In this document: positions 15,687-24,456 of the stretch, piece after piece
Position numbering within the stretch: position 1 is the first letter of the stretch
Layout: each line of letters opens with the position of its first letter
Position numbers and translations under genes: made by a program
DNA from: an uncultured Verrucomicrobiota bacterium
GTDB lineage: Bacteria > Verrucomicrobiota > Kiritimatiellia > PWTM01
Assembly: GCA_964464305.1 (NCBI GenBank)
Contig: CAYXFW010000002.1
Span: 1-29,119, forward strand
Direction of reading: 5' to 3'
DNA length: 29,119 bases
The notes under the pieces: model-generated
What the model saw: only the letters and a program-made list of their open reading frames with translations
Database searches by the model: none
Told to the model about the DNA's origin: nothing

Positions 15687-15729
15687 CCGGAGCCGGAAGA
15701 AAGTAACGGGAAGGAACGAAGACCGAACC

Positions 15730-15800
15730 GGACAGGATCACAGGATGCGACGGGATCGGCTGTTCAGTGGTCCCATCCCGTCAATCCCGTCATCCCGTCC
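15730..15800. repeat. Inverted arrays of 8-9-mer repeats forming a hairpin between convergent genes
   Basis: Left GACAGGAT/ACAGGAT/GACGGGAT (15731-15756); right ATCCCGTC x3 (15775-15799); 18-nt loop. Confidence 0.8.
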
Positions 15801-15834
15801 GTCTTTGTGTCGCTCAGGGCATTCAAGCGTATCG

Positions 15835-16185
15835 TTACCGTCGGTGGCCTTCTTGGAGAGAGCGGTTCATCGGTTCCGATGTCGTGCCCCACGCGGGCAT
15901 TCCTCGCGCGACCCATTCGTCATAGTTCACCATAATGTTTCGCCCGTCCACGAACCACACGGCAAGGAATCCCAAGACAGCGAGCGCAAGAGCGGGGACG
16001 GGAGGCTTGGCAGTCCGAATCCAGCAACCTATCGACACCAATAGAATGACCCCGAAGACCCAACGAAAAGCCATCGGCCCGGCACCGTGATTATCGGGAT
16101 AGCGCAGCCAGATCAGCCCGACCAGCCCGACCATTCCCAAGAGCGCTCCTATGGCCAGAACGATTTGTATGATTCGAATCATCAT
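15835..16185 (-). CDS. Hypothetical small membrane protein (about three TM segments)
   Basis: 116-aa ORF with three hydrophobic stretches; more AT-rich codons than neighbours; no recognised family. Confidence 0.6.
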   Translation of the reverse strand: MMIRIIQIVLAIGALLGMVGLVGLIWLRYPDNHGAGPMAFRWVFGVILLVSIGCWIRTAKPPVPALALAVLGFLAVWFVDGRNIMVNYDEWVARGMPAWGTTSEPMNRSLQEGHRR

Positions 16186-16350
16186 GGACCTGTCGTGGGT
16201 CTAACGCCGGCTCTGGTCCCCGCCTGGCGCACGCGGCGGATCTCCCATGGGGCGGATGGTGCTCTTCCATTCGAAGGCGATCAAGCGGTTCTTGGGGGAG
16301 GCGGTTCACCTTGGCGGCGACGGATTGGCCGGGATCCGGCCATGAGGGTG

Positions 16351-16575
16351 TCAGCGGATGACCGGGAAGCCTTCCCGGTTCGCCGCCTCGGCCAGCCGGC
16401 TGTCCGCGCACACGAAGGGCAGTTGCCCGGGCTCGAAGCGGCACGCCACGAGCGCGGCCGCCAACTGGAAGGCGTCCGCCATGCGAAGCCGGTGAAGACG
16501 GAGACACCGTTCCGCTGCGGAGCGGACGACCTCCAGCGGTCCTTGCTGGAAAAGGCGAAGGGCGGCGCGCGCCAA
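16351..16575 (-). pseudogene. C-terminal remnant of a VapC/PIN-domain toxin
   Basis: EVVRSAAERCLRLHRLRMADAFQLAAALVAC...FVCADSRLAEAANREGFPVI matches the PIN C-terminal half (LRAADALQLAAAL...FVCxDxRLxxAAxxEGF). The N-terminal half with the first catalytic Asp is absent and there is no RBS or antitoxin. Confidence 0.75.
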
Positions 16576-16645
16576 GGAGGTTGGGTGGAGAACCCAGAGA
16601 AAACGCGCACCGCCCGATCTGAACGTACCCCTGCCGGGAGGCAAG

Positions 16646-19078
16646 TCAAATGGCACGGAGAGGTTTTTCGGTCCCGGCGGCACGGCCATCGCCGTGGGGG
16701 GCGGGTGCCTTCGGACGATCCACCGGCCCGGGCCGATCGGAGGTCCACTCGATGCGGAACGGAGATGAGTTCGTATCCGCCATCGGCACGAGAAGATCGG
16801 ACCCCGAGACCAGAGCGCTGCGGATGCGCGCCCACGTCGCATCGGTGAGCAGAAACATGAATCCGTCTTCGACGAGCTTGACCGCATTCGCGGACTGATC
16901 GCCAACGAACCCGACGTAATTGCCCGTCCTCCGGGCCATGTTTCCGGGATTGCAGCCAATCGCCATATCCCGGGATTGCCCCGGCTTCCAGACCAGACAG
17001 CAATCCGAACCGGGCTCCGGCCTCGTCAACGCGACACTGCAGATCCCCGTTTCCGAGGTCCGGCCCGCAAAGGTCGCAATGTCGACCGCATCGGCGCGAT
17101 CCAGCCGCAGCGTCACAGCCCGGTCATCGGCAAGCAAGCGGGCGCCGGGCAGAAGCATCCGGCCCATTCGAGCCAGGAGCGACGATTTCTCCTGCTCCGC
17201 CATCGATACGACATTGCTCCGGTCGCGATCGCACCAAGGCGTGGTGGGATAGAAGCGGTACTCTTCGCCGAGGCGGGCCAGCACCCGCGTCATCCCGAAG
17301 GCATCCGCCACCCGGGCCTCCTCGGCGGTCAACACGATGGCCGCGAGATGATTCGTCATCGGAATGCGCAGAATCTGGATCGGCTCGACATACGAAATCG
17401 TCGTAAAATCGGCTCGCCCTAGAAAGCTCTCTCCCGCCAGGATCGTTCGTTGGCCGGGTTTGAGTCCGTGGCCGTTTGTGGCATAGGCATAGATGCCATA
17501 AAAGAGGTCCATCACGTCCCTCGGAAACTGACCCGGCGATTCGCCCTGGCGCAGGGCCACGGATAGGATCAGTTCGGGATGCCCATGTTTGCGCAGCCCT
17601 TCGGTGACACAGGTCCGACACGAGACACCGCCGGTCGCCACCGGGATATCGTGTGTGTAGACCCGGGCGATGAGTTCGCCCGGAACCAAGTCGATGACCG
17701 ATGAACCGGCACGACCTGCAATGCAACCGGCCCGGTCCATGACGCGGCGGATGGCGGCGAAGGCGGTTTCCTCGACGTTGTCCGCGAACGGACCGGGGTG
17801 GCCGTAGTAGATCATGCTGGATTCCGGCTCGTAGCCTCCCTCGCGGAGCACACGGAGCGAGGGGATGTAGCTGCTCACCTCGTTGCAGTAGCCGGCGACG
17901 ACCATGTTCTCGCCGGGGAATTCCCGCGCGGAGCGGAGCGCATAGTCGATCACCACCTCGCCGCTCAGGCCGAGCAGGGTCAGGTCGGCGCCAAAGCGGA
18001 CGGCATGGACCTGGAACGGAAGCCTGCGGGCGGGCTTCCCGGCATCGTACGCCTCGAGCATCCGCGCGGCGCGGCGGCGTTTGTGCAGGCTTGCGCCGTC
18101 GGTTCCGGCCGCGGCGGCTTCCTTCTCGAACGTCTCGCGCGTGTGGGCCGCGAAGTCGAGCTGGGCGACCTCGTGGGCGGTGCGGATCGGCGGGCGGACG
18201 GCCGCGAGCCCCCCGGCCAGAGCCTTCTCGACGGCTCCGGCCAGCTCCCGGCCGTGCCGTTCCATGTGCTCGATCTTGCCGCGGGGATACGGGTTCTGGT
18301 CGGCTCCGCAGAGAATCATGTAGAGCGCGGTGGCCCCGGGGTGCGCCTGCTCGATCGCGCGCTGGGCAAAGCCGCCGAAGTCGCTGTCGACCTCGTTGAA
18401 CCCGGCGGGCATCGTCGTCCCGTGGCAGGCGTAGCCGAACAGCACGGCCCGAAGCCGTCCGTCCGGATGCGTGACGCGGAGCACCGGCACGCGGTGGTCC
18501 ACCGGTCCGGCGGAATTCGTGCCCAGCCGGACGCCCGCCGCGGTCTTCTCGCGACGATTGATGGCGAATCCGGCCGTGCCGGATCCGCAGTCGAGCCGCG
18601 CCGGGGAAAGGTCGGCGAGCGCCGCGCCGACGAGCGCGACCACCTCGTCCGTGACCTTGCGGCCATAGGCGACGACACGTCCGCGCTCGGCCTCGTCGAA
18701 CGAGTACATGGCCGCCAGGTTGGGCCAGACCACGGGGCCGTAGTGGGTGTGCGAGCCATTCAACAGCACTTGCGAGCGGTCCAGACCGTGCGCCTTCCCG
18801 ACGCGGGCGGCGATTTCGTCGGACATCTCCCGCGGGAATCCGATCAGGTCGGCTGTCACGATGACAACGCGCCCGCTGGCGCCGTCCTCGACCGCCAGCG
18901 CCTTCGCCCAGAGTTCATTGCGCACGGTCGTCGCCGCATTGGTTCGCGACGCGTAGCCCGACAGGCGAAACGGCATCGGCGGCGTGACGTTGCACCGCGC
19001 GACGCCGACCCGGAATTCCGCGGCGCCGGAGGTCGCGGCGGCGAGGACCGATACAAGAATCCATACCCTCCACTGCAT
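16646..19078 (-). CDS. Secreted neutral/alkaline-ceramidase-like metallohydrolase fused to a SARA/endofin C-terminal-like domain
   Basis: AAGGAG RBS 8 nt before ATG 19078; signal peptide MQWRVWILVSVLAAATSGA; GVARCNVTPP, SGYASR, TADLIG, SHTHYGP, FGYACH, GEVVIDY, GYCNEVSSYIPS, EGGYE. Then ~350 aa with TEGLRKHGHPEL, SFLG, RLGEEYRFYP, VEDG. Confidence 0.8.
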   Translation of the reverse strand: MQWRVWILVSVLAAATSGAAEFRVGVARCNVTPPMPFRLSGYASRTNAATTVRNELWAKALAVEDGASGRVVIVTADLIGFPREMSDEIAARVGKAHGLDRSQVLLNGSHTHYGPVVWPNLAAMYSFDEAERGRVVAYGRKVTDEVVALVGAALADLSPARLDCGSGTAGFAINRREKTAAGVRLGTNSAGPVDHRVPVLRVTHPDGRLRAVLFGYACHGTTMPAGFNEVDSDFGGFAQRAIEQAHPGATALYMILCGADQNPYPRGKIEHMERHGRELAGAVEKALAGGLAAVRPPIRTAHEVAQLDFAAHTRETFEKEAAAAGTDGASLHKRRRAARMLEAYDAGKPARRLPFQVHAVRFGADLTLLGLSGEVVIDYALRSAREFPGENMVVAGYCNEVSSYIPSLRVLREGGYEPESSMIYYGHPGPFADNVEETAFAAIRRVMDRAGCIAGRAGSSVIDLVPGELIARVYTHDIPVATGGVSCRTCVTEGLRKHGHPELILSVALRQGESPGQFPRDVMDLFYGIYAYATNGHGLKPGQRTILAGESFLGRADFTTISYVEPIQILRIPMTNHLAAIVLTAEEARVADAFGMTRVLARLGEEYRFYPTTPWCDRDRSNVVSMAEQEKSSLLARMGRMLLPGARLLADDRAVTLRLDRADAVDIATFAGRTSETGICSVALTRPEPGSDCCLVWKPGQSRDMAIGCNPGNMARRTGNYVGFVGDQSANAVKLVEDGFMFLLTDATWARIRSALVSGSDLLVPMADTNSSPFRIEWTSDRPGPVDRPKAPAPHGDGRAAGTEKPLRAI

Positions 19079-19092
19079 GGGCGTGACTCCTT

Positions 19093-20468
<1,376 letters not shown>

Positions 20469-20472
<4 letters not shown>

Positions 20473-21872
20473 GGCTTGAACGGTCCCTTCACGTAGAACA
20501 GGTCCGCGCGAACCCGGCTCGCATCGGGCACGCGGGCGAGCGAGTAGACGCTGCCGTCCCTGCCGACGGCGATGGAATTGACGTAGAGCGGGCGGCTCCC
20601 GTCGGGATAGAAGATCGCCCCCTGGTCGCGGCAGCGGCCGGTCGGAATGTGGTAGGTGACCAGGTGCAGATCCTCGAGGCCCTTGGCCGCGCCCATGGCG
20701 ATGCGGTCCTTGCCCTTGAGGCGCCGGCCGTTCTCGTAGATCGGCCCGCCGGTCAGGTAGTGGATCATGTCGCCGTCGGGGCCGAGCGCGAACCCGAGGT
20801 AGCCGTAGCTGAACTGGTCGAACATGCCGCTGCGCTTGGAGACGTCGGAGGTGATGCGGTCCAGCACCTCGATCCGCCGGGCGCGGGGATCGAAACGGAA
20901 CAGGTAGCCGGAGTTCCCGTGCACGCCGTAGATCCTCCCGTCCGCGGGACGGAAGAACGTCTGCCGCCAGTTGTAGCCCATGTGGCCGGGCGACGTCGGT
21001 TCGTACTGGCCGAAGTAGTCTTTCCGCAGATCTTCCTCCGCGATCTTCTCGAGGCTGTCCGTGTCGGCGCGGTAGCGGAGGATGTCCCCCTCGGAGGTGC
21101 TGAAATACGCGGAGCCGTCCGTCGGATCCACCACGATGGACCGGCAGATGGTGCGGTAGGCTGCGCCCTTGGCGTTCTCGCCTTCGGCGCATTGTTTGCC
21201 GAAGTTCTTCATGCTTCGCGTGGCCAGGTCGAACCGGAGGAACGAGCCGGTCGGCCAGGTCAGGTAGAAGATGCGTCCGCGCTTCGCATCCATGGCCATG
21301 CTCAGCACGCCCTCGCCGCCGGGCGCGGTGGCGAGGTTCTCGAAGACGCCGGTCTTGAGGTCGTAGGCCAGCAGGTGGCCGCCCGGGTAGGGCTTCCAGC
21401 CGGCGGGCGGGATGCCCATCGTCTCCATGCCGTCGACGATGCTGTAGAATCCGGTGTGCGAGGAGAAGTAGAGCTTGCCGCCGGCCTCCGTGAAATTCAC
21501 GTGGCTCTTGCCCTGGGCGACGGTCTTCGCGTCCTTCTCGCCGCAGATCTCCGTGAGGTCGCCGAGGCGGAGGACGCGTTCCGCCTTCGGATCGTAGGCG
21601 AACATCCGCCCGCCGAGATCGTACGGCTCGGTGCTGAGCACGTAGTAGATGCGCCCGTCGCTGCCGGTCCCCATGCCGTTATACGTATCGTGGCCCTCGG
21701 GAAACCCCGAATCGACCCTGTGCGCAACCAGTTTGCGCGCGGGTTGAAACGGATCCGGCGCTTCTGCGGCGCCGGCCCCGCCCGGAAGGGCGGCAGCCGC
21801 GGCGAGCAGCAGGACGAGGCCGGAGGCGATCCCGTTCGTTGACGGGTGCGGATGGGGGGGGCGCATTCTCAT
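20469..21872 (-). CDS. Secreted hypothetical protein, probable beta-propeller
   Basis: Hydrophobic signal (GLVLLLAAAAALPG); recurring beta-strand blades (DGRIYY, GKLYFSS, RIFYLTW, SAYFSTS, DGRIYGV, DMIHYLT, DGSVYSL); ATGA coupling to the upstream gene. Confidence 0.7.
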
Positions 21873-23071
21873 ATTCTCGTTCCTTCGTTAGCTCGAACCG
21901 GCTGCATCAGGACTGCGTCGAGGAATCGGTACGCGACCGACCGCATCTCGCCGGAGAACTCGTGCGGACCGTCGGGGTGCTCGACCCGCAGGCGCCCAAG
22001 CGTGCCGTAGAGACGATAGACCTGGGACGCCGCGGCGGCAATGCGGTCCACACTCTGCCACTTGAAGTTGTCGTCCTTCCGCGGCGCGCTGAGGAAGACA
22101 TGCCGCGGGGCCAGCGCGCCGATCAACTCGTGGAAGTCGAACGGAATGTCCTCCAGCCGGCCGGCGTAGTCCAGCAGGCGCGGCATGTAGCGAAGCTGGC
22201 ACCATCCCTTCTCCACCGCCCATGCGGCCGGGCTGCCGTCCATGTAGTCGAGATACGAGTCCAGCCCGCAACTGGAGACGATAGCCGCGATACGCTCGTC
22301 CAGAACCGCGGTGTACACCGCGTTGTGGCCGCCCAAGGAGTGTCCGATGACGCCAAACCCGCCGCACTTCACGAACGGCAGCGATTCGAGAACGTCCAGC
22401 GCGCGCATGTTGTCCCAGATGGCCTTCATCGTGCCGCTGACGTACCCCAACTGCTTCAGGTCGGGCCGGTATCCTGCCAGCAGCGGATAGCCGGGCGCAA
22501 GGGTCACGTAGCCTCGATCAGCAAGCTCGCCGGCATACTGGCGCCCGGGGGCTCCGCCCAGGCCCACGACCACGCCGCACCCGATCCGGTCGTCCGTCGG
22601 ATGCAGGCAGAGGACGGCGGGGCAGATGGCCTTCCCGGCCAGTGCCGTCTTCGGGATGCAGAGATAGGCCGGCACGCGACCGCCCGGCTCGGCCTGGTAG
22701 GTGATCGAACGGCGCACGTAGCTGCCGCAGTCGGCTTCGTCGTCCACCTTCACATCGACCGGGCAGCGTTTGTCCGGTCCGGGCAGCGGCCCCATCACGG
22801 CCAGCATGCCCCGCACGATCTCGTCGCGACGCTTCTGCCAGTCCGCCGGCGTCCGTACGGGGCGCACGGCGTTCGCGTCATCGTGCCAGACCATGAGGTT
22901 GTCCCGCGGCAGGCGGGCGGGCGGCACGGCGGTCGCAGCGGCGGAACCGGCGGCATCCGCCGGTTCCGCGCAAGCGACACAGACCGCCAGACTGGCGGCG
23001 AGGCGCGCTGCGACTCTCCCGGCCGGACCGGCCGCGAAATCATACGCCCGATGCGGTCCTTTCGCTTCCAT
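21869..23071 (-). CDS. Secreted alpha/beta hydrolase (dienelactone hydrolase / acetyl esterase-like)
   Basis: VPAYLCIP, AVLCLHPT, MKAIWDNMRALDVL, GVIGHSLGGHN (GxSxG nucleophile), ALAPRHVFLSAP, HEF. ATG 23071 with AGGA RBS. Confidence 0.85.
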   Translation of the reverse strand: MEAKGPHRAYDFAAGPAGRVAARLAASLAVCVACAEPADAAGSAAATAVPPARLPRDNLMVWHDDANAVRPVRTPADWQKRRDEIVRGMLAVMGPLPGPDKRCPVDVKVDDEADCGSYVRRSITYQAEPGGRVPAYLCIPKTALAGKAICPAVLCLHPTDDRIGCGVVVGLGGAPGRQYAGELADRGYVTLAPGYPLLAGYRPDLKQLGYVSGTMKAIWDNMRALDVLESLPFVKCGGFGVIGHSLGGHNAVYTAVLDERIAAIVSSCGLDSYLDYMDGSPAAWAVEKGWCQLRYMPRLLDYAGRLEDIPFDFHELIGALAPRHVFLSAPRKDDNFKWQSVDRIAAAASQVYRLYGTLGRLRVEHPDGPHEFSGEMRSVAYRFLDAVLMQPVRANEGTRI

Positions 23072-23118
23072 GGTTCCTGTCCCCCGCAGCGGGCGGAGCA
23101 CACCCGAATGGAACGGCT

Positions 23119-24456
23119 CTACGTTGCGGCAAGCTGGTCCCGGTGTGTCCAAACCTTCTCGAAGGCGGTTGCGTACTGATCGGTCACGTCCTGCGCCTCG
23201 CCGTAGAACAGGGGCAGGAAGATGTGGTTCGCGTTGAGGTGTTCGCAGCCGGGCATGCTCGCCGGGATCTTCGGCGCATGATGCCACCACTTCGCCTCGG
23301 CATAGATCTTCAGCGTGTGCTGCTGCGGGTAGTCCCAGTAGCTGGCCTTGACCCCCTCGGCCGCCAGGGCCTTCACCAACGCATCCCGCGTGATGCCGGA
23401 CTTCTTGAAGTCCAGCAGGAGCATGTTGGCATGGTAGTAGACCCGCTGCTGGTCGGGACGGCAGCGCGGCTCGACGATGCCGGACAGTTGCGTCAGCCGG
23501 TCGTTCAGCAAGCGGACATTCCGCGCGGCGATCGCGTTCATCTCGTCCAGGCCCTTCAACTGCATCCGCGCCACGGCCGCGGCGAAGGGGTGCATGCGGT
23601 ACTTCTGGCCAAAGCCGGTGCCCTCGTAGGCCCGCACCGGGCTGTCCTTCGGAAACGAGGCCGGTGCCTCGTAGTGGCCGAAGGCGGAGGCGCGCTCGTA
23701 GTACTCGCGCGTCCGGTACATGCCCATGCCGCCCTCGACGGCGGGCATCACCTTCGAGGCCTGGAAGCTGAAGATGGCCATCTCGCCCCACGTGCCCATC
23801 TTCCGGCCCTGCATCGAGGCGCCGTGGGCGTGGGCGCAATCCTCCAGCGCGACCAGACCCTTCTCCTTCGCCCAGGCGCAGATGCGGTCCATCTCGCACG
23901 GCAGCCCCCAGGCGTGCATCCCCTCCACCGCCCGCGTCTGCGGGGTGAGCTTGCGCTTCGCGTCCTCGAGATCGAGACAGCCGGTCTTCGGATCGACGTC
24001 CACGAAGACCGGCACGAGGTTCGCGAACCGCATGGCGAGGCACGCGGAAAAGAACGTATAGGTCGGCACGAGGACCTCGCTGCCCGGGGGCAGATCGAGC
24101 GAAAGCGCGAAGTACATGCTCGTCAGGGCGCTGGACCCGTTCATGTGCGCCTTCACGAAGGGCGCCTGGGTGTAGTCCTGCCATTCCTTCTCGAAGAGCG
24201 AAAGCTCCTCGTAGAACTTGTTCGAATCGAGAAGCTCGTGCAGACGGTTCTTCTCGGCCGCCCCGTAGCGGGGCCACCGGGTCAGCGCGGCGATGCGCTG
24301 CGGGGCGATGGTCACCGTCTTCGCGCCACCCTCGGCGGCCAGCGTTTCCCGGGTGGCGATGCGGGCCGCCGTCAGGCCGGCTGCGGCGGCGGTGCCGGTC
24401 TTGAGAAAGCTCCGGCGGGTCCAGGACAAATCGGCGCGGATGGATTTCGTCTTCAT
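23119..24456 (-). CDS. DegT/DnrJ/EryC1/StrS family PLP aminotransferase with Tat signal
   Basis: WTRRSFLKTGTAAAAG twin-arginine leader; VFVDVDP, EDCAHAHGA, FSFQASKVMPAVEGGM (PLP Lys), KYRM. Confidence 0.9.
   Translation of the reverse strand: MKTKSIRADLSWTRRSFLKTGTAAAAGLTAARIATRETLAAEGGAKTVTIAPQRIAALTRWPRYGAAEKNRLHELLDSNKFYEELSLFEKEWQDYTQAPFVKAHMNGSSALTSMYFALSLDLPPGSEVLVPTYTFFSACLAMRFANLVPVFVDVDPKTGCLDLEDAKRKLTPQTRAVEGMHAWGLPCEMDRICAWAKEKGLVALEDCAHAHGASMQGRKMGTWGEMAIFSFQASKVMPAVEGGMGMYRTREYYERASAFGHYEAPASFPKDSPVRAYEGTGFGQKYRMHPFAAAVARMQLKGLDEMNAIAARNVRLLNDRLTQLSGIVEPRCRPDQQRVYYHANMLLLDFKKSGITRDALVKALAAEGVKASYWDYPQQHTLKIYAEAKWWHHAPKIPASMPGCEHLNANHIFLPLFYGEAQDVTDQYATAFEKVWTHRDQLAAT

What the first reader, a model, noticed from the sequence alone, without database searches (positions are those of the whole stretch)
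16646..17730. Bacterial SARA/endofin C-terminal-like domain fused to a secreted ceramidase-like hydrolase
Seen: after the natural-looking end of the hydrolase (...ETAFAAIRRVMDRAG, ~17726) the frame continues ~350 aa with visibly lower-GC codons: CVTEGLRKHGHPELIL...FPRDVMDLFYGIY...ESFLGRADF...RVLARLGEEYRFYP...SDCCLVW...KLVEDGFMFLLTDATWARIRSAL...FRIEW. From recall, this follows in order the C-terminal region of animal ZFYVE9/SARA and ZFYVE16/endofin (PKDIFNHF..LY, SFLGS, RLMLRLGAEYRLYP, ADSHLVC, IVEDGVMVQIT...LRQAL, IHIQW; Pfam SARA_C/DUF3480). Known: those are endosomal signalling scaffolds and this domain's biochemistry is unresolved. Inference: a recent in-frame capture placing a eukaryote-like domain on an exported, possibly lipid-amide-cleaving enzyme. 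It could be a host/predator interaction factor or an immunity-type (SuFu-like) module, and a tractable model for the domain's function.
Basis: partly seen in the sequence, partly recalled or inferred. Interest (0 to 1): 0.85.

Follow-up and report, generated by a model that had tools for sequence, protein, structure and literature searches.

The report
Young hydrolase fusion with SARA/SUFU-like domain
In one groundwater bacterial strain, about 1 kb from another bacterium's SARA/endofin-type (SUFU-like) gene has recently landed in frame at the end of an exported ceramidase-like enzyme; the domain match is real, but this domain is common in bacteria and nothing shows the new fusion does anything yet.

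Summary
The gene at 16646-19096 (-) encodes 816 aa: a Sec signal peptide, a neutral-ceramidase-like Zn hydrolase of about 430 aa, then about 335 aa that are a true SARA_C domain. Evidence for the domain: Pfam PF11979 scores 36 bits (cut-off 25), phmmer hits the human ZFYVE9 C-terminal structure 4BKW at E 6e-6, and an AF2 model (pLDDT 88) matches 4BKW at Z 30 and TM 0.67. The fold is a two-lobed SUFU-like clamp.

The fusion is real and very young. A second NCBI MAG contig is 100% identical across it, and an independent Logan contig spans it. Strains 96-99% identical carry the empty site, where the hydrolase ends ...DRAG+5 aa. All orthologues are about 450 aa. The domain was found in none of about 345 other genomes of the phylum.

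The domain is not eukaryote-specific. It has 910 representative clusters at E <= 0.001, and those whose origin could be checked are bacterial (six phyla or candidate phyla, automatic UniProt-type names). The nearest relatives (42-47% identity) are stand-alone exported proteins.

No fused relative exists elsewhere, no RNA or protein data were found, and no toxin genes flank the relatives examined. Most likely this is a recent passenger fusion. If it is active, it would act as a protein-binding tether.

The parts
16646..19096 (-). Whole fusion gene: 816 aa from ATG 19096. An alternative ATG at 19078 gives the 810-aa product that NCBI annotates.
19019..19096 (-). Sec-type signal peptide (about residues 1-26: basic n-region, hydrophobic core, SGA-AE site). 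The start overlaps the stop of the upstream paralogue (ATGA).
   Evidence: Read from the sequence. Orthologues have the same leader.
17727..19018 (-). Neutral/alkaline-ceramidase-like catalytic domain (residues about 27-457). The HTH, CHGT, GE and SSY motifs align with the Zn-site region of P. aeruginosa ceramidase 2ZWS. It lacks the C-terminal Ig-like domain of true neutral ceramidases.
   Evidence: PF04734 E 1e-17. 2zws_A E 4e-12. More than 3600 relatives of 440-480 aa.
17726..17727 (-). Left (5') junction of the insert. Homology to every empty-site allele ends here, inside the Gly codon of ...DRAG.
16671..17726 (-). Foreign segment, at most 1056 nt (352 codons). It has no start codon of its own and no signal peptide. 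G+C is 0.635 and GC3 about 0.75.
16712..17710 (-). SARA_C / two-lobed SUFU-like domain (residues about 463-795).
17165..17704 (-). N-lobe (model residues about 11-190). It has the SUFU N-terminal-domain fold.
   Evidence: 1m1l Z 12.3, 3k5j Z 11.1. YqcF hit.
16742..17164 (-). C-lobe (model residues about 191-331), carrying the invariant E-D-G and W motifs shared with human SARA.
16646..16711 (-). Disordered 21-aa tail plus the TGA stop (16646-16648). The stop lies in sequence resembling the native 3' flank (shared CATTTGAC).
   Evidence: pLDDT below 50..
16670..16709 (-). Right (3') junction zone, position ambiguous. Clear homology to the empty-site alleles resumes at 16670 (L037) or 16628 (L035, X2). 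A 9-nt identity to the native last codons lies at about 16700-16708.
16548..16631 (.). Multi-copy intergenic element of 71-84 nt that natively follows the hydrolase gene. It also occurs downstream of other genes in the same-genus genomes.
   Evidence: No tRNA. No Rfam match.
16351..16551 (-). 3' remnant (67 aa) of a PIN toxin gene. Relative to the empty-site relatives, 657 nt are deleted: the Phd antitoxin and the 5' half of PIN.
19093..20493 (-). Upstream paralogous ceramidase-like gene, translationally coupled. Its synteny with same-genus genomes is conserved.

Best explanation
SHOWN. About 1.0 kb of foreign DNA (at most 16671-17726) sits in frame at the last codons of a Sec-exported, neutral-ceramidase-like Zn hydrolase. 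The foreign piece is an internal fragment of a gene for a bacterial SARA_C protein, a two-lobed SUFU-like fold. It lacks that gene's start codon and signal peptide. The native stop codon is gone, so the frame runs through 339-352 foreign codons and ends at a TGA in the native 3' flank. The event is strain-level and young. Strains 96-99% identical at DNA level have the uninterrupted gene ending ...DRAG-APAAR. Same-genus genomes and the rest of the phylum sample lack the domain. The segment keeps a foreign codon composition. The same small region also lost a Phd antitoxin and half of a PIN toxin, so it is a recombination-prone spot.

INFERRED. The product is an exported two-module protein. The nearest relatives of the insert (P0002, P0004; tree support 1.0) are themselves stand-alone proteins with N-terminal signal or anchor segments. 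The hydrolase leader therefore puts the domain back into its usual compartment, and it should fold. It keeps 38 of 43 family-conserved positions, which is typical for the family.

FUNCTION. By homology to SUFU (which clamps the Gli peptide between its two lobes), to bacterial SUFU-type immunity proteins, and to the partner-binding C-terminal regions of SARA and endofin, the domain is most likely a protein/peptide-binding clamp, not an enzyme.

MY COMMITMENT. The fusion is most likely (about 55%) a recent passenger with no evolved role. If it acts, the likeliest role (about 25%) is to tether or target the hydrolase to a protein partner in the envelope.
For: - Domain identity.
- Family is bacterial and broad.
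- Orthologous hydrolases end at the junction.
- Empty-site alleles: the X2 contig joins 17727 to 16628 with 71 other letters; L035 and L037-L039 show the same.
- Junction confirmed independently: a 1918-nt Logan contig spans 16400-18259. GCA_018895195.1 contig JAHIOL010000022.1 is 100% identical over 2492 nt, and its protein P0274 equals residues 89-816. Run X3, from a third study, holds both insert and hydrolase pieces at 100% identity and similar depth.
- Domain found in no other genome of a sample of the class (46), family (11), genus (3) and phylum (300, overlapping; about 345 distinct in all).
- Composition shift.
- No excess decay: 5 of 43 deviations against a family median of 4.
- Nearest relatives are exported.
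- No other protein with this architecture among 5.8 billion.
- The hydrolase part is under purifying selection: 35 synonymous against 12 non-synonymous codon differences to the empty-site allele.
Against: - No RNA run holds the locus and no proteomics were available, so translation of the fusion is unproven.
- The same allele was recovered in two NCBI MAGs, and probably in a third study's run. That argues it is not an ephemeral lesion and leaves room for a selected function.
- The family-conserved Trp and Tyr of the C-W-[ST]-Y strand are Arg and Cys here. This could weaken folding.
- The binding-clamp role is by analogy only. No partner is known for any bacterial member, and neighbourhoods are heterogeneous.
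Confidence: 0.72

Rival explanations
1. Adaptive tether or targeting module. The SARA_C clamp binds an envelope or prey/host surface protein and so localises the exported amidohydrolase to its substrate.
For: - The domain is intact and confidently folded.
- The donor clade is exported.
- The allele occurs in more than one assembly or run.
- True neutral ceramidases carry an extra C-terminal domain at this position, which this short family lacks.
Against: - It is a single-strain event with no other example among 5.8 billion proteins and about 3600 unfused relatives of the hydrolase.
- No partner is known.
- There has been no time for co-adaptation, since the codon usage is not ameliorated.
Confidence: 0.25
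2. Cis-acting inhibitor or immunity-type module. Like bacterial SUFU-family immunity proteins, the domain masks the hydrolase until it is released.
For: The N-lobe matches SUFU-type immunity proteins (B. subtilis YqcF, Neisseria 3K5J). The SUFU superfamily is known to neutralise very diverse toxins (PMC3482391).
Against: - Thousands of orthologous hydrolases need no such domain.
- No toxin genes lie beside the 8 bacterial SARA_C loci examined.
- The fusion is too young for a fitted interface.
- The window copy gets no Pfam SUFU hit.
Confidence: 0.08
3. Assembly artefact: two organisms' DNA joined by the assembler at about 17727.
For: The genome is a fragmented MAG: 831 contigs, 76% complete. 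Synteny with same-genus genomes breaks exactly at the junction. A multi-copy repeat lies 15 nt beyond the stop.
Against: - An independent assembler (Logan) spans the junction by more than 500 nt on each side at even depth.
- A second NCBI assembly is 100% identical over 2492 nt across both junctions.
- In run X3 the insert and hydrolase pieces have similar depth, 22-26.
- The junction is not at a repeat.
Confidence: 0.03
4. Eukaryote-to-bacterium capture of the animal SARA/endofin domain, acting as a host-mimicking effector.
For: The Pfam family was defined on animal proteins. The best solved structure is human ZFYVE9.
Against: - Identity to ZFYVE9/16 is only 19-20%, against 42-47% to bacterial proteins.
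- The family has 910 clusters, and members whose source could be checked come from many free-living bacterial phyla.
- The habitat is groundwater.
Confidence: 0.02

Closest known systems
C-terminal domain of human ZFYVE9 (SARA) and ZFYVE16 (endofin); Pfam PF11979 SARA_C (formerly DUF3480); PDB 4BKW
   Same: Same domain. It is significant by sequence. The fold match covers the whole domain: Z 30.4, rmsd 3.3 A over 314 residues, TM 0.67-0.68. Shared motifs are R-L-G-x-E-Y-R-x-Y-P, V-E-D-G and the final W.
   Different: Only 19-20% identical. There is no FYVE finger and no Smad-binding domain. The protein is exported instead of cytosolic or endosomal, and the domain is fused to a hydrolase. The conserved Trp and Tyr of the first lobe are replaced.
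Bacterial stand-alone SARA_C-like proteins (e.g. P0002 from JGI 3300082978, P0004 on OBEQ011024259.1, Minicystis rosea CP016211 locus L018). Databases name them automatically as 'Smad anchor for receptor activation-like C-terminal domain-containing protein'.
   Same: These are the true nearest relatives: 42-47% identity, clade support 1.0. They have the same two lobes and the same conserved columns. The nearest ones are exported.
   Different: They are separate genes of 320-550 aa. About 45% carry a third C-terminal domain of about 150 aa, and a few are fused to PqqD, TPR or CHAT. None is fused to a hydrolase. No member has been studied experimentally, as far as the papers searched show.
Suppressor of fused (SUFU; PF05076 + PF12470) and bacterial Imm-SUFU immunity proteins (YqcF, PDB 3K5J)
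   Same: Two-lobed architecture. The N-lobe superposes at Z 11-12. Two of 111 bacterial relatives also hit Pfam SUFU. The language-model neighbours are SUFU clusters.
   Different: Sequence similarity is marginal. The window copy has no Pfam SUFU hit. There is no toxin-immunity gene context.
Neutral/alkaline ceramidase (PF04734; P. aeruginosa 2ZWS, human ASAH2 4WGK)
   Same: The N-terminal half of the catalytic domain aligns at E 4e-12, with the His-x-His and His metal motifs kept.
   Different: It belongs to a short (about 450 aa), multi-paralogue family named in Verrucomicrobiota/Phycisphaerae-type MAGs, without the Ig-like C-terminal domain. The substrate is unknown. The operon partners are a paralogue, a beta-propeller-like protein and a CE15-like esterase.

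Membership tests
Pfam SARA_C (PF11979) | Whole-protein score above the curated gathering threshold | tested here: met
   36.4 bits against 25, E 3.9e-9. The HMM matches in two stretches, the best covering profile positions 1-51.
Pfam SARA_C (PF11979) | Collinear sequence homology with the ZFYVE9 C-terminal region over the whole domain | tested here: met
   phmmer against 4bkw_A, E 5.7e-6, query 39-333 to chain 68-377.
Pfam SARA_C (PF11979) | Same three-dimensional fold as 4BKW | tested here: met
   AF2 model pLDDT 88. Foldseek E 2e-23, TM 0.67. VIA-align Z 30.4 over 314 residues. ZFYVE16 and ZFYVE9 are the top Swiss-Prot models.
Pfam SARA_C (PF11979) | Family-conserved residues retained | tested here: met
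   38 of 43 columns conserved at 80% or more are kept, including all invariant ones (G46, E139, R150, P163, E289-D290-G291). W40R and Y42C are deviations.
SARA/endofin protein family (ZFYVE9/16 architecture) | FYVE zinc finger and Smad-binding domain N-terminal to SARA_C | tested here: not met
   Only Ceramidase_alk and SARA_C are found in the protein. It is not a SARA/endofin orthologue.
SUFU superfamily | SUFU N-domain fold in the first lobe and a two-lobe arrangement | tested here: met
   1m1l Z 12.3, 3k5j Z 11.1, full-length SUFU Z about 12.5. Foldseek E 1e-10.
SUFU superfamily | Pfam SUFU (PF05076) sequence match | tested here: not met
   No hit for the window copy at E <= 1. Two of 111 relatives hit at E 2.5e-5.
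Imm-SUFU polymorphic-toxin immunity proteins | Gene adjacent to a polymorphic toxin or inside a poly-immunity locus | tested here: not met
   The neighbours of 8 bacterial SARA_C loci and of the window gene are unrelated housekeeping or hydrolase genes.
Neutral ceramidase (PF04734 + PF17048) | N-terminal catalytic domain with Zn-ligand motifs | tested here: met
   PF04734 E 1e-17. Alignment to 2zws keeps HTH and the second His. The GE and SY motifs are present, but that part of the alignment is weak.
Neutral ceramidase (PF04734 + PF17048) | C-terminal Ig-like domain, and ceramide as substrate | tested here: not met
   There is no PF17048 hit, and orthologues end about 5 aa after the catalytic domain. 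The substrate cannot be tested with these tools.

The most novel reading that the evidence does not exclude
The bacterial SARA_C proteins are the prokaryotic stock from which animals took the SARA/endofin C-terminal domain. They would be two-lobed SUFU-type clamps that also work outside the cytoplasm. On this reading, the natural fusion is a freshly selected case in which such a clamp targets or gates an exported lipid-amide hydrolase. Comparing the filled and empty alleles would then give a direct handle on what the domain binds.
Probability: 0.15. Interest if true: 0.6.

Novelty: new variant of a known kind. Interest (0 to 1): 0.4.

Why it matters
1. It is a clean natural snapshot of how a multi-domain protein is born. 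A gene fragment lands in frame on the stop codon of another gene, and both the filled and the empty alleles are still present in environmental populations.

2. It draws attention to a large, unstudied bacterial family homologous to the C-terminal domain of SARA and endofin. The biochemistry of that domain is unresolved. The family shows it to be a SUFU-like two-lobed module, which I could not find stated in the open literature searched. The stand-alone bacterial proteins, more than this one-off fusion, are the practical route to its function.

3. For annotation: the hydrolase should not be called a ceramidase with confidence, and the extension should not be read as eukaryotic contamination.

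Tried and rejected
- tRNA integration site. The conserved 83-nt stretch at 16548-16631 is not a tRNA and matches no Rfam family. It is a multi-copy intergenic element.
- Flanking repeats. No direct or inverted repeats bracket the insert; only chance-size matches were found.
- Link between the Phd-PIN pair upstream of the SARA_C gene on L050 and the Phd-PIN pair downstream of the hydrolase in the empty-site relatives. The proteins are not closely related: PIN 25% identity, E 0.16. I treat this as coincidence.
- Full-length fused relatives. None found.
- Closer donor in JGI metagenome contigs. None better than 42% identity.
- The search for related loci with broad alignments failed for lack of a conserved stretch. 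It worked with 5 sequences.
- Conserved gene neighbourhood for the bacterial family. None seen in 8 loci. The family is sporadic even in Myxococcota, with 4 of 201 genomes.
- Literature searches for DUF3480, 4BKW, SUFU-like + ZFYVE9, endofin + suppressor of fused gave nothing relevant. The polymorphic-toxin survey PMC3482391 discusses SuFu immunity proteins but not SARA.
- Complex prediction (hydrolase against SARA_C) was not run. A brand-new fusion has no co-evolution signal, so neither outcome would have moved the odds.
- The exact 3' boundary of the insert stays ambiguous, between 16670 and 16709.
Full report
WHAT IS THERE
The long minus-strand frame 16646-20266 holds one real gene from ATG 19096 to TGA 16646, 816 aa (P0001). 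Its start overlaps the stop of an upstream paralogue as ATGA. The protein begins with a Sec-type leader.

Residues 28-254 match Pfam Ceramidase_alk at E 1e-17. The first half aligns with P. aeruginosa neutral ceramidase 2ZWS at E 4e-12, with the His-x-His and second His metal motifs kept.

The hydrolase belongs to a very large family of about 450-aa proteins. More than 3600 hits were found, all 440-480 aa, and some are named from Verrucomicrobiota and Phycisphaerae MAGs. The family has 6-7 paralogues per genome in this genus. It lacks the Ig-like C-terminal domain of true ceramidases, so its substrate is open.

THE EXTENSION IS A REAL SARA_C DOMAIN
- Pfam SARA_C (PF11979) scores 36.4 bits against a cut-off of 25.
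- A plain phmmer search of all PDB sequences returns one hit, the crystal structure of the C-terminal region of human ZFYVE9 (4BKW). The E-value is 5.7e-6, and the alignment is collinear over residues 39-333 of the 362-aa query.
- An AlphaFold2 model built on 28 homologues is confident: pLDDT 88, pTM 0.86.
- The model's best PDB match is 4BKW: Foldseek E 2e-23, TM 0.67; VIA-align Z 30.4, rmsd 3.3 A over 314 residues.
- The best Swiss-Prot models are ZFYVE16 and ZFYVE9, E 1e-24.
- The next matches are full-length Suppressor of fused (Z about 12.5), its N-terminal domain (1M1L), the Neisseria SUFU homologue 3K5J (Z 11.1) and the B. subtilis immunity protein YqcF.

The domain is therefore a two-lobed SUFU-like module.

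THE DOMAIN IS NOT EUKARYOTE-SPECIFIC
- An exhaustive search of 1.84 billion representatives found 910 clusters at E <= 0.001 and 183 at E <= 1e-30. Most are 320-550 aa.
- Of 111 sampled, 96 hit Pfam SARA_C and 2 hit Pfam SUFU. A few are fused to PqqD, TPR or CHAT.
- Members lie in Anaerolineae, Terriglobales, Polyangiales, Rokubacteria and Aminicenantes MAGs, and in the complete genome of Minicystis rosea DSM 24000.
- ESM-Atlas clusters that are 90-100% bacterial already carry the automatic name 'Smad anchor for receptor activation-like, C-terminal domain-containing protein'.
- The family is sporadic: 4 of 201 Myxococcota genomes have it.
- About 18% of members have an N-terminal hydrophobic segment, and about 45% have a third C-terminal domain of about 150 aa.
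- In a tree, the window copy groups with P0002 (47-48%) and P0004 (42%) with support 1.0. Both are stand-alone proteins with signal or anchor segments.
- The window copy keeps 38 of 43 family-conserved columns against a family median of 39, so it is not decayed. It does have Arg and Cys in place of the conserved Trp and Tyr of the C-W-[ST]-Y strand.

THE FUSION IS REAL AND VERY YOUNG
- Orthologous hydrolases in three genomes of the same genus (66-69% identity), and in family members, stop 2-15 residues after the junction.
- Closer alleles end ...DRAG-ASAAR (91%; P0153, P0275) or ...DRAG-APAAR (96% DNA identity; P0278).
- DNA alignment of the 96% allele (L037, GCA_017973875.1; also a JGI and a Logan contig) shows homology from 19091 to exactly 17727. 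It resumes at 16670.
- The 91% allele (L035), and a contig in run X2 that is 99% identical in the hydrolase, join 17727 to 16628 with 71 other letters between.
- The foreign segment is thus at most 16671-17726, which is 1056 nt or 352 codons. A 9-nt identity to the native last codons near 16700-16708 may mean a clean 1017-nt insertion. The 3' boundary is ambiguous.
- The segment has no start codon or leader of its own. The stop used (16646-16648) lies in sequence resembling the native 3' flank.
- GC3 is about 0.75 in the insert and about 0.89 in the hydrolase.
- A profile of the domain finds nothing in 60 relatives (3 of the same genus, 11 of the same family, 46 of the same class) nor in 300 genomes sampled from the phylum. 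The two samples overlap, and together they cover about 345 distinct other genomes.
- No protein with this architecture exists among 5.8 billion clusters.

IT IS NOT A CHIMERIC ASSEMBLY
- A Logan contig of 1918 nt, made by a different assembler from run X1 (probably the source sample), covers 16400-18259 with one mismatch.
- A contig of a second NCBI MAG (GCA_018895195.1, JAHIOL010000022.1, 2492 nt) is 100% identical to 16342-18833. Its annotated protein equals residues 89-816.
- Run X3, from a third study, holds pieces of both the insert and the hydrolase at 100% identity and similar depth.
- The junction is not at a repeat.
- The hydrolase part differs from the empty-site allele by 35 synonymous and 12 non-synonymous codons, which indicates purifying selection on that part.

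THE SURROUNDINGS
- Compared with the empty-site relatives, the window has also lost 657 nt just downstream. These carried a Phd antitoxin and the 5' half of a PIN toxin. A 67-aa PIN remnant is left at 16351-16551.
- A 71-84-nt multi-copy intergenic element (16548-16631) follows the gene.
- The left part of the window, up to 15697 (the cysteine and methionine genes), is 86-88% identical to same-genus genomes but lies at another locus there. The joint near 16314 is supported only by the window's own assembly.

HOW IT PROBABLY WORKS
Shown: the frame predicts an exported hydrolase with a C-terminal SARA_C module.

Inferred: because the donor clade is itself exported, the module should fold in the envelope.

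By analogy, I take the module to be a protein/peptide-binding clamp. SUFU clamps the Gli peptide between its lobes. SUFU-type immunity proteins bind very diverse toxins (PMC3482391). The SARA and endofin C-terminal regions bind partners; this last point is from my own knowledge and was not checked here.

Nothing indicates an evolved partnership with the hydrolase. The fusion is unique, unameliorated and polymorphic, and thousands of orthologues do without it.

My odds are as follows:
- The fusion exists as DNA: 0.95.
- Passenger without an evolved role: about 0.55.
- Tether or targeting module: about 0.25.
- Cis-inhibitor or immunity-like module: about 0.08.

No RNA run holds the locus, so expression is unknown.

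COMPARISON AND NOVELTY
The domain is a member of Pfam SARA_C, and all tests I could run were met. The protein is not a SARA/endofin orthologue, because it has no FYVE finger and no Smad-binding domain. It does not meet the context criterion of Imm-SUFU immunity proteins.

Bacterial SARA_C proteins are already labelled automatically in databases. I found no paper on them, on DUF3480, on 4BKW, or on the SARA-SUFU fold relationship.

The hydrolase-SARA_C architecture is new but is a one-strain event. I therefore rate it 'new variant of a known kind' with moderate interest, mainly as a caught-in-the-act domain accretion and as a pointer to the unstudied bacterial family.

Noticed in passing
window 16314-16551 (-), compared with L037 1568-2453: Truncated PIN toxin gene: 67 C-terminal residues, 93% identical to the intact PIN of the empty-site relatives. 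The Phd antitoxin and the 5' half of PIN (657 nt) are deleted. This is a decayed toxin-antitoxin pair next to the insertion.
   Followed up: yes
window 16548-16631: Intergenic element of 71-84 nt present in many copies (80-92% identical) in all four related genomes searched, usually just after the stop codons of convergent genes. It is not a tRNA and matches no Rfam family. It may be a REP-like or terminator-associated repeat.
   Followed up: partly
window 15698-16313, including ORF 15835-16185 (-): About 600 bp of lower-GC DNA with a 116-aa hydrophobic ORF (no Pfam hit). It is absent downstream of cysK in same-genus genomes and absent from the empty-site relatives. The joint near 16314 between the cysK block and the hydrolase block is supported only by this assembly.
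   Followed up: partly
proteins P0027, P0039, P0045, P0052, P0093, P0096, P0114, P0142 and others: About 15% of bacterial SARA_C-like proteins begin with a conserved M-S-W-W-K-K-L-F-G-type N-terminus. It might be an amphipathic membrane-binding helix or a sorting tag. Unexplained.
   Followed up: no
alignment A3 columns about 455-610 (e.g. P0005, P0006, P0010, P0020): About 45% of the bacterial family carry an additional conserved C-terminal domain of about 150 aa. It starts with an S-P-V-D-G...Y motif and has no Pfam match. The window copy keeps only a P-V-D remnant of the linker.
   Followed up: no
window 19093-23119 (-): Operon of translationally coupled exported proteins: a CE15/glucuronyl-esterase-like protein, a beta-propeller-like protein with no Pfam hit, and two divergent ceramidase-like paralogues. 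Upstream lie two DegT-family aminotransferases and an AraC regulator. The substrate of the pathway is unknown.
   Followed up: partly
L050 3769-5975 (OBEQ011024259.1): In one of the two closest stand-alone relatives, the SARA_C gene lies directly downstream of a Phd-PIN pair. That pair is not closely related to the pair at the window's locus, so this is probably coincidence.
   Followed up: yes
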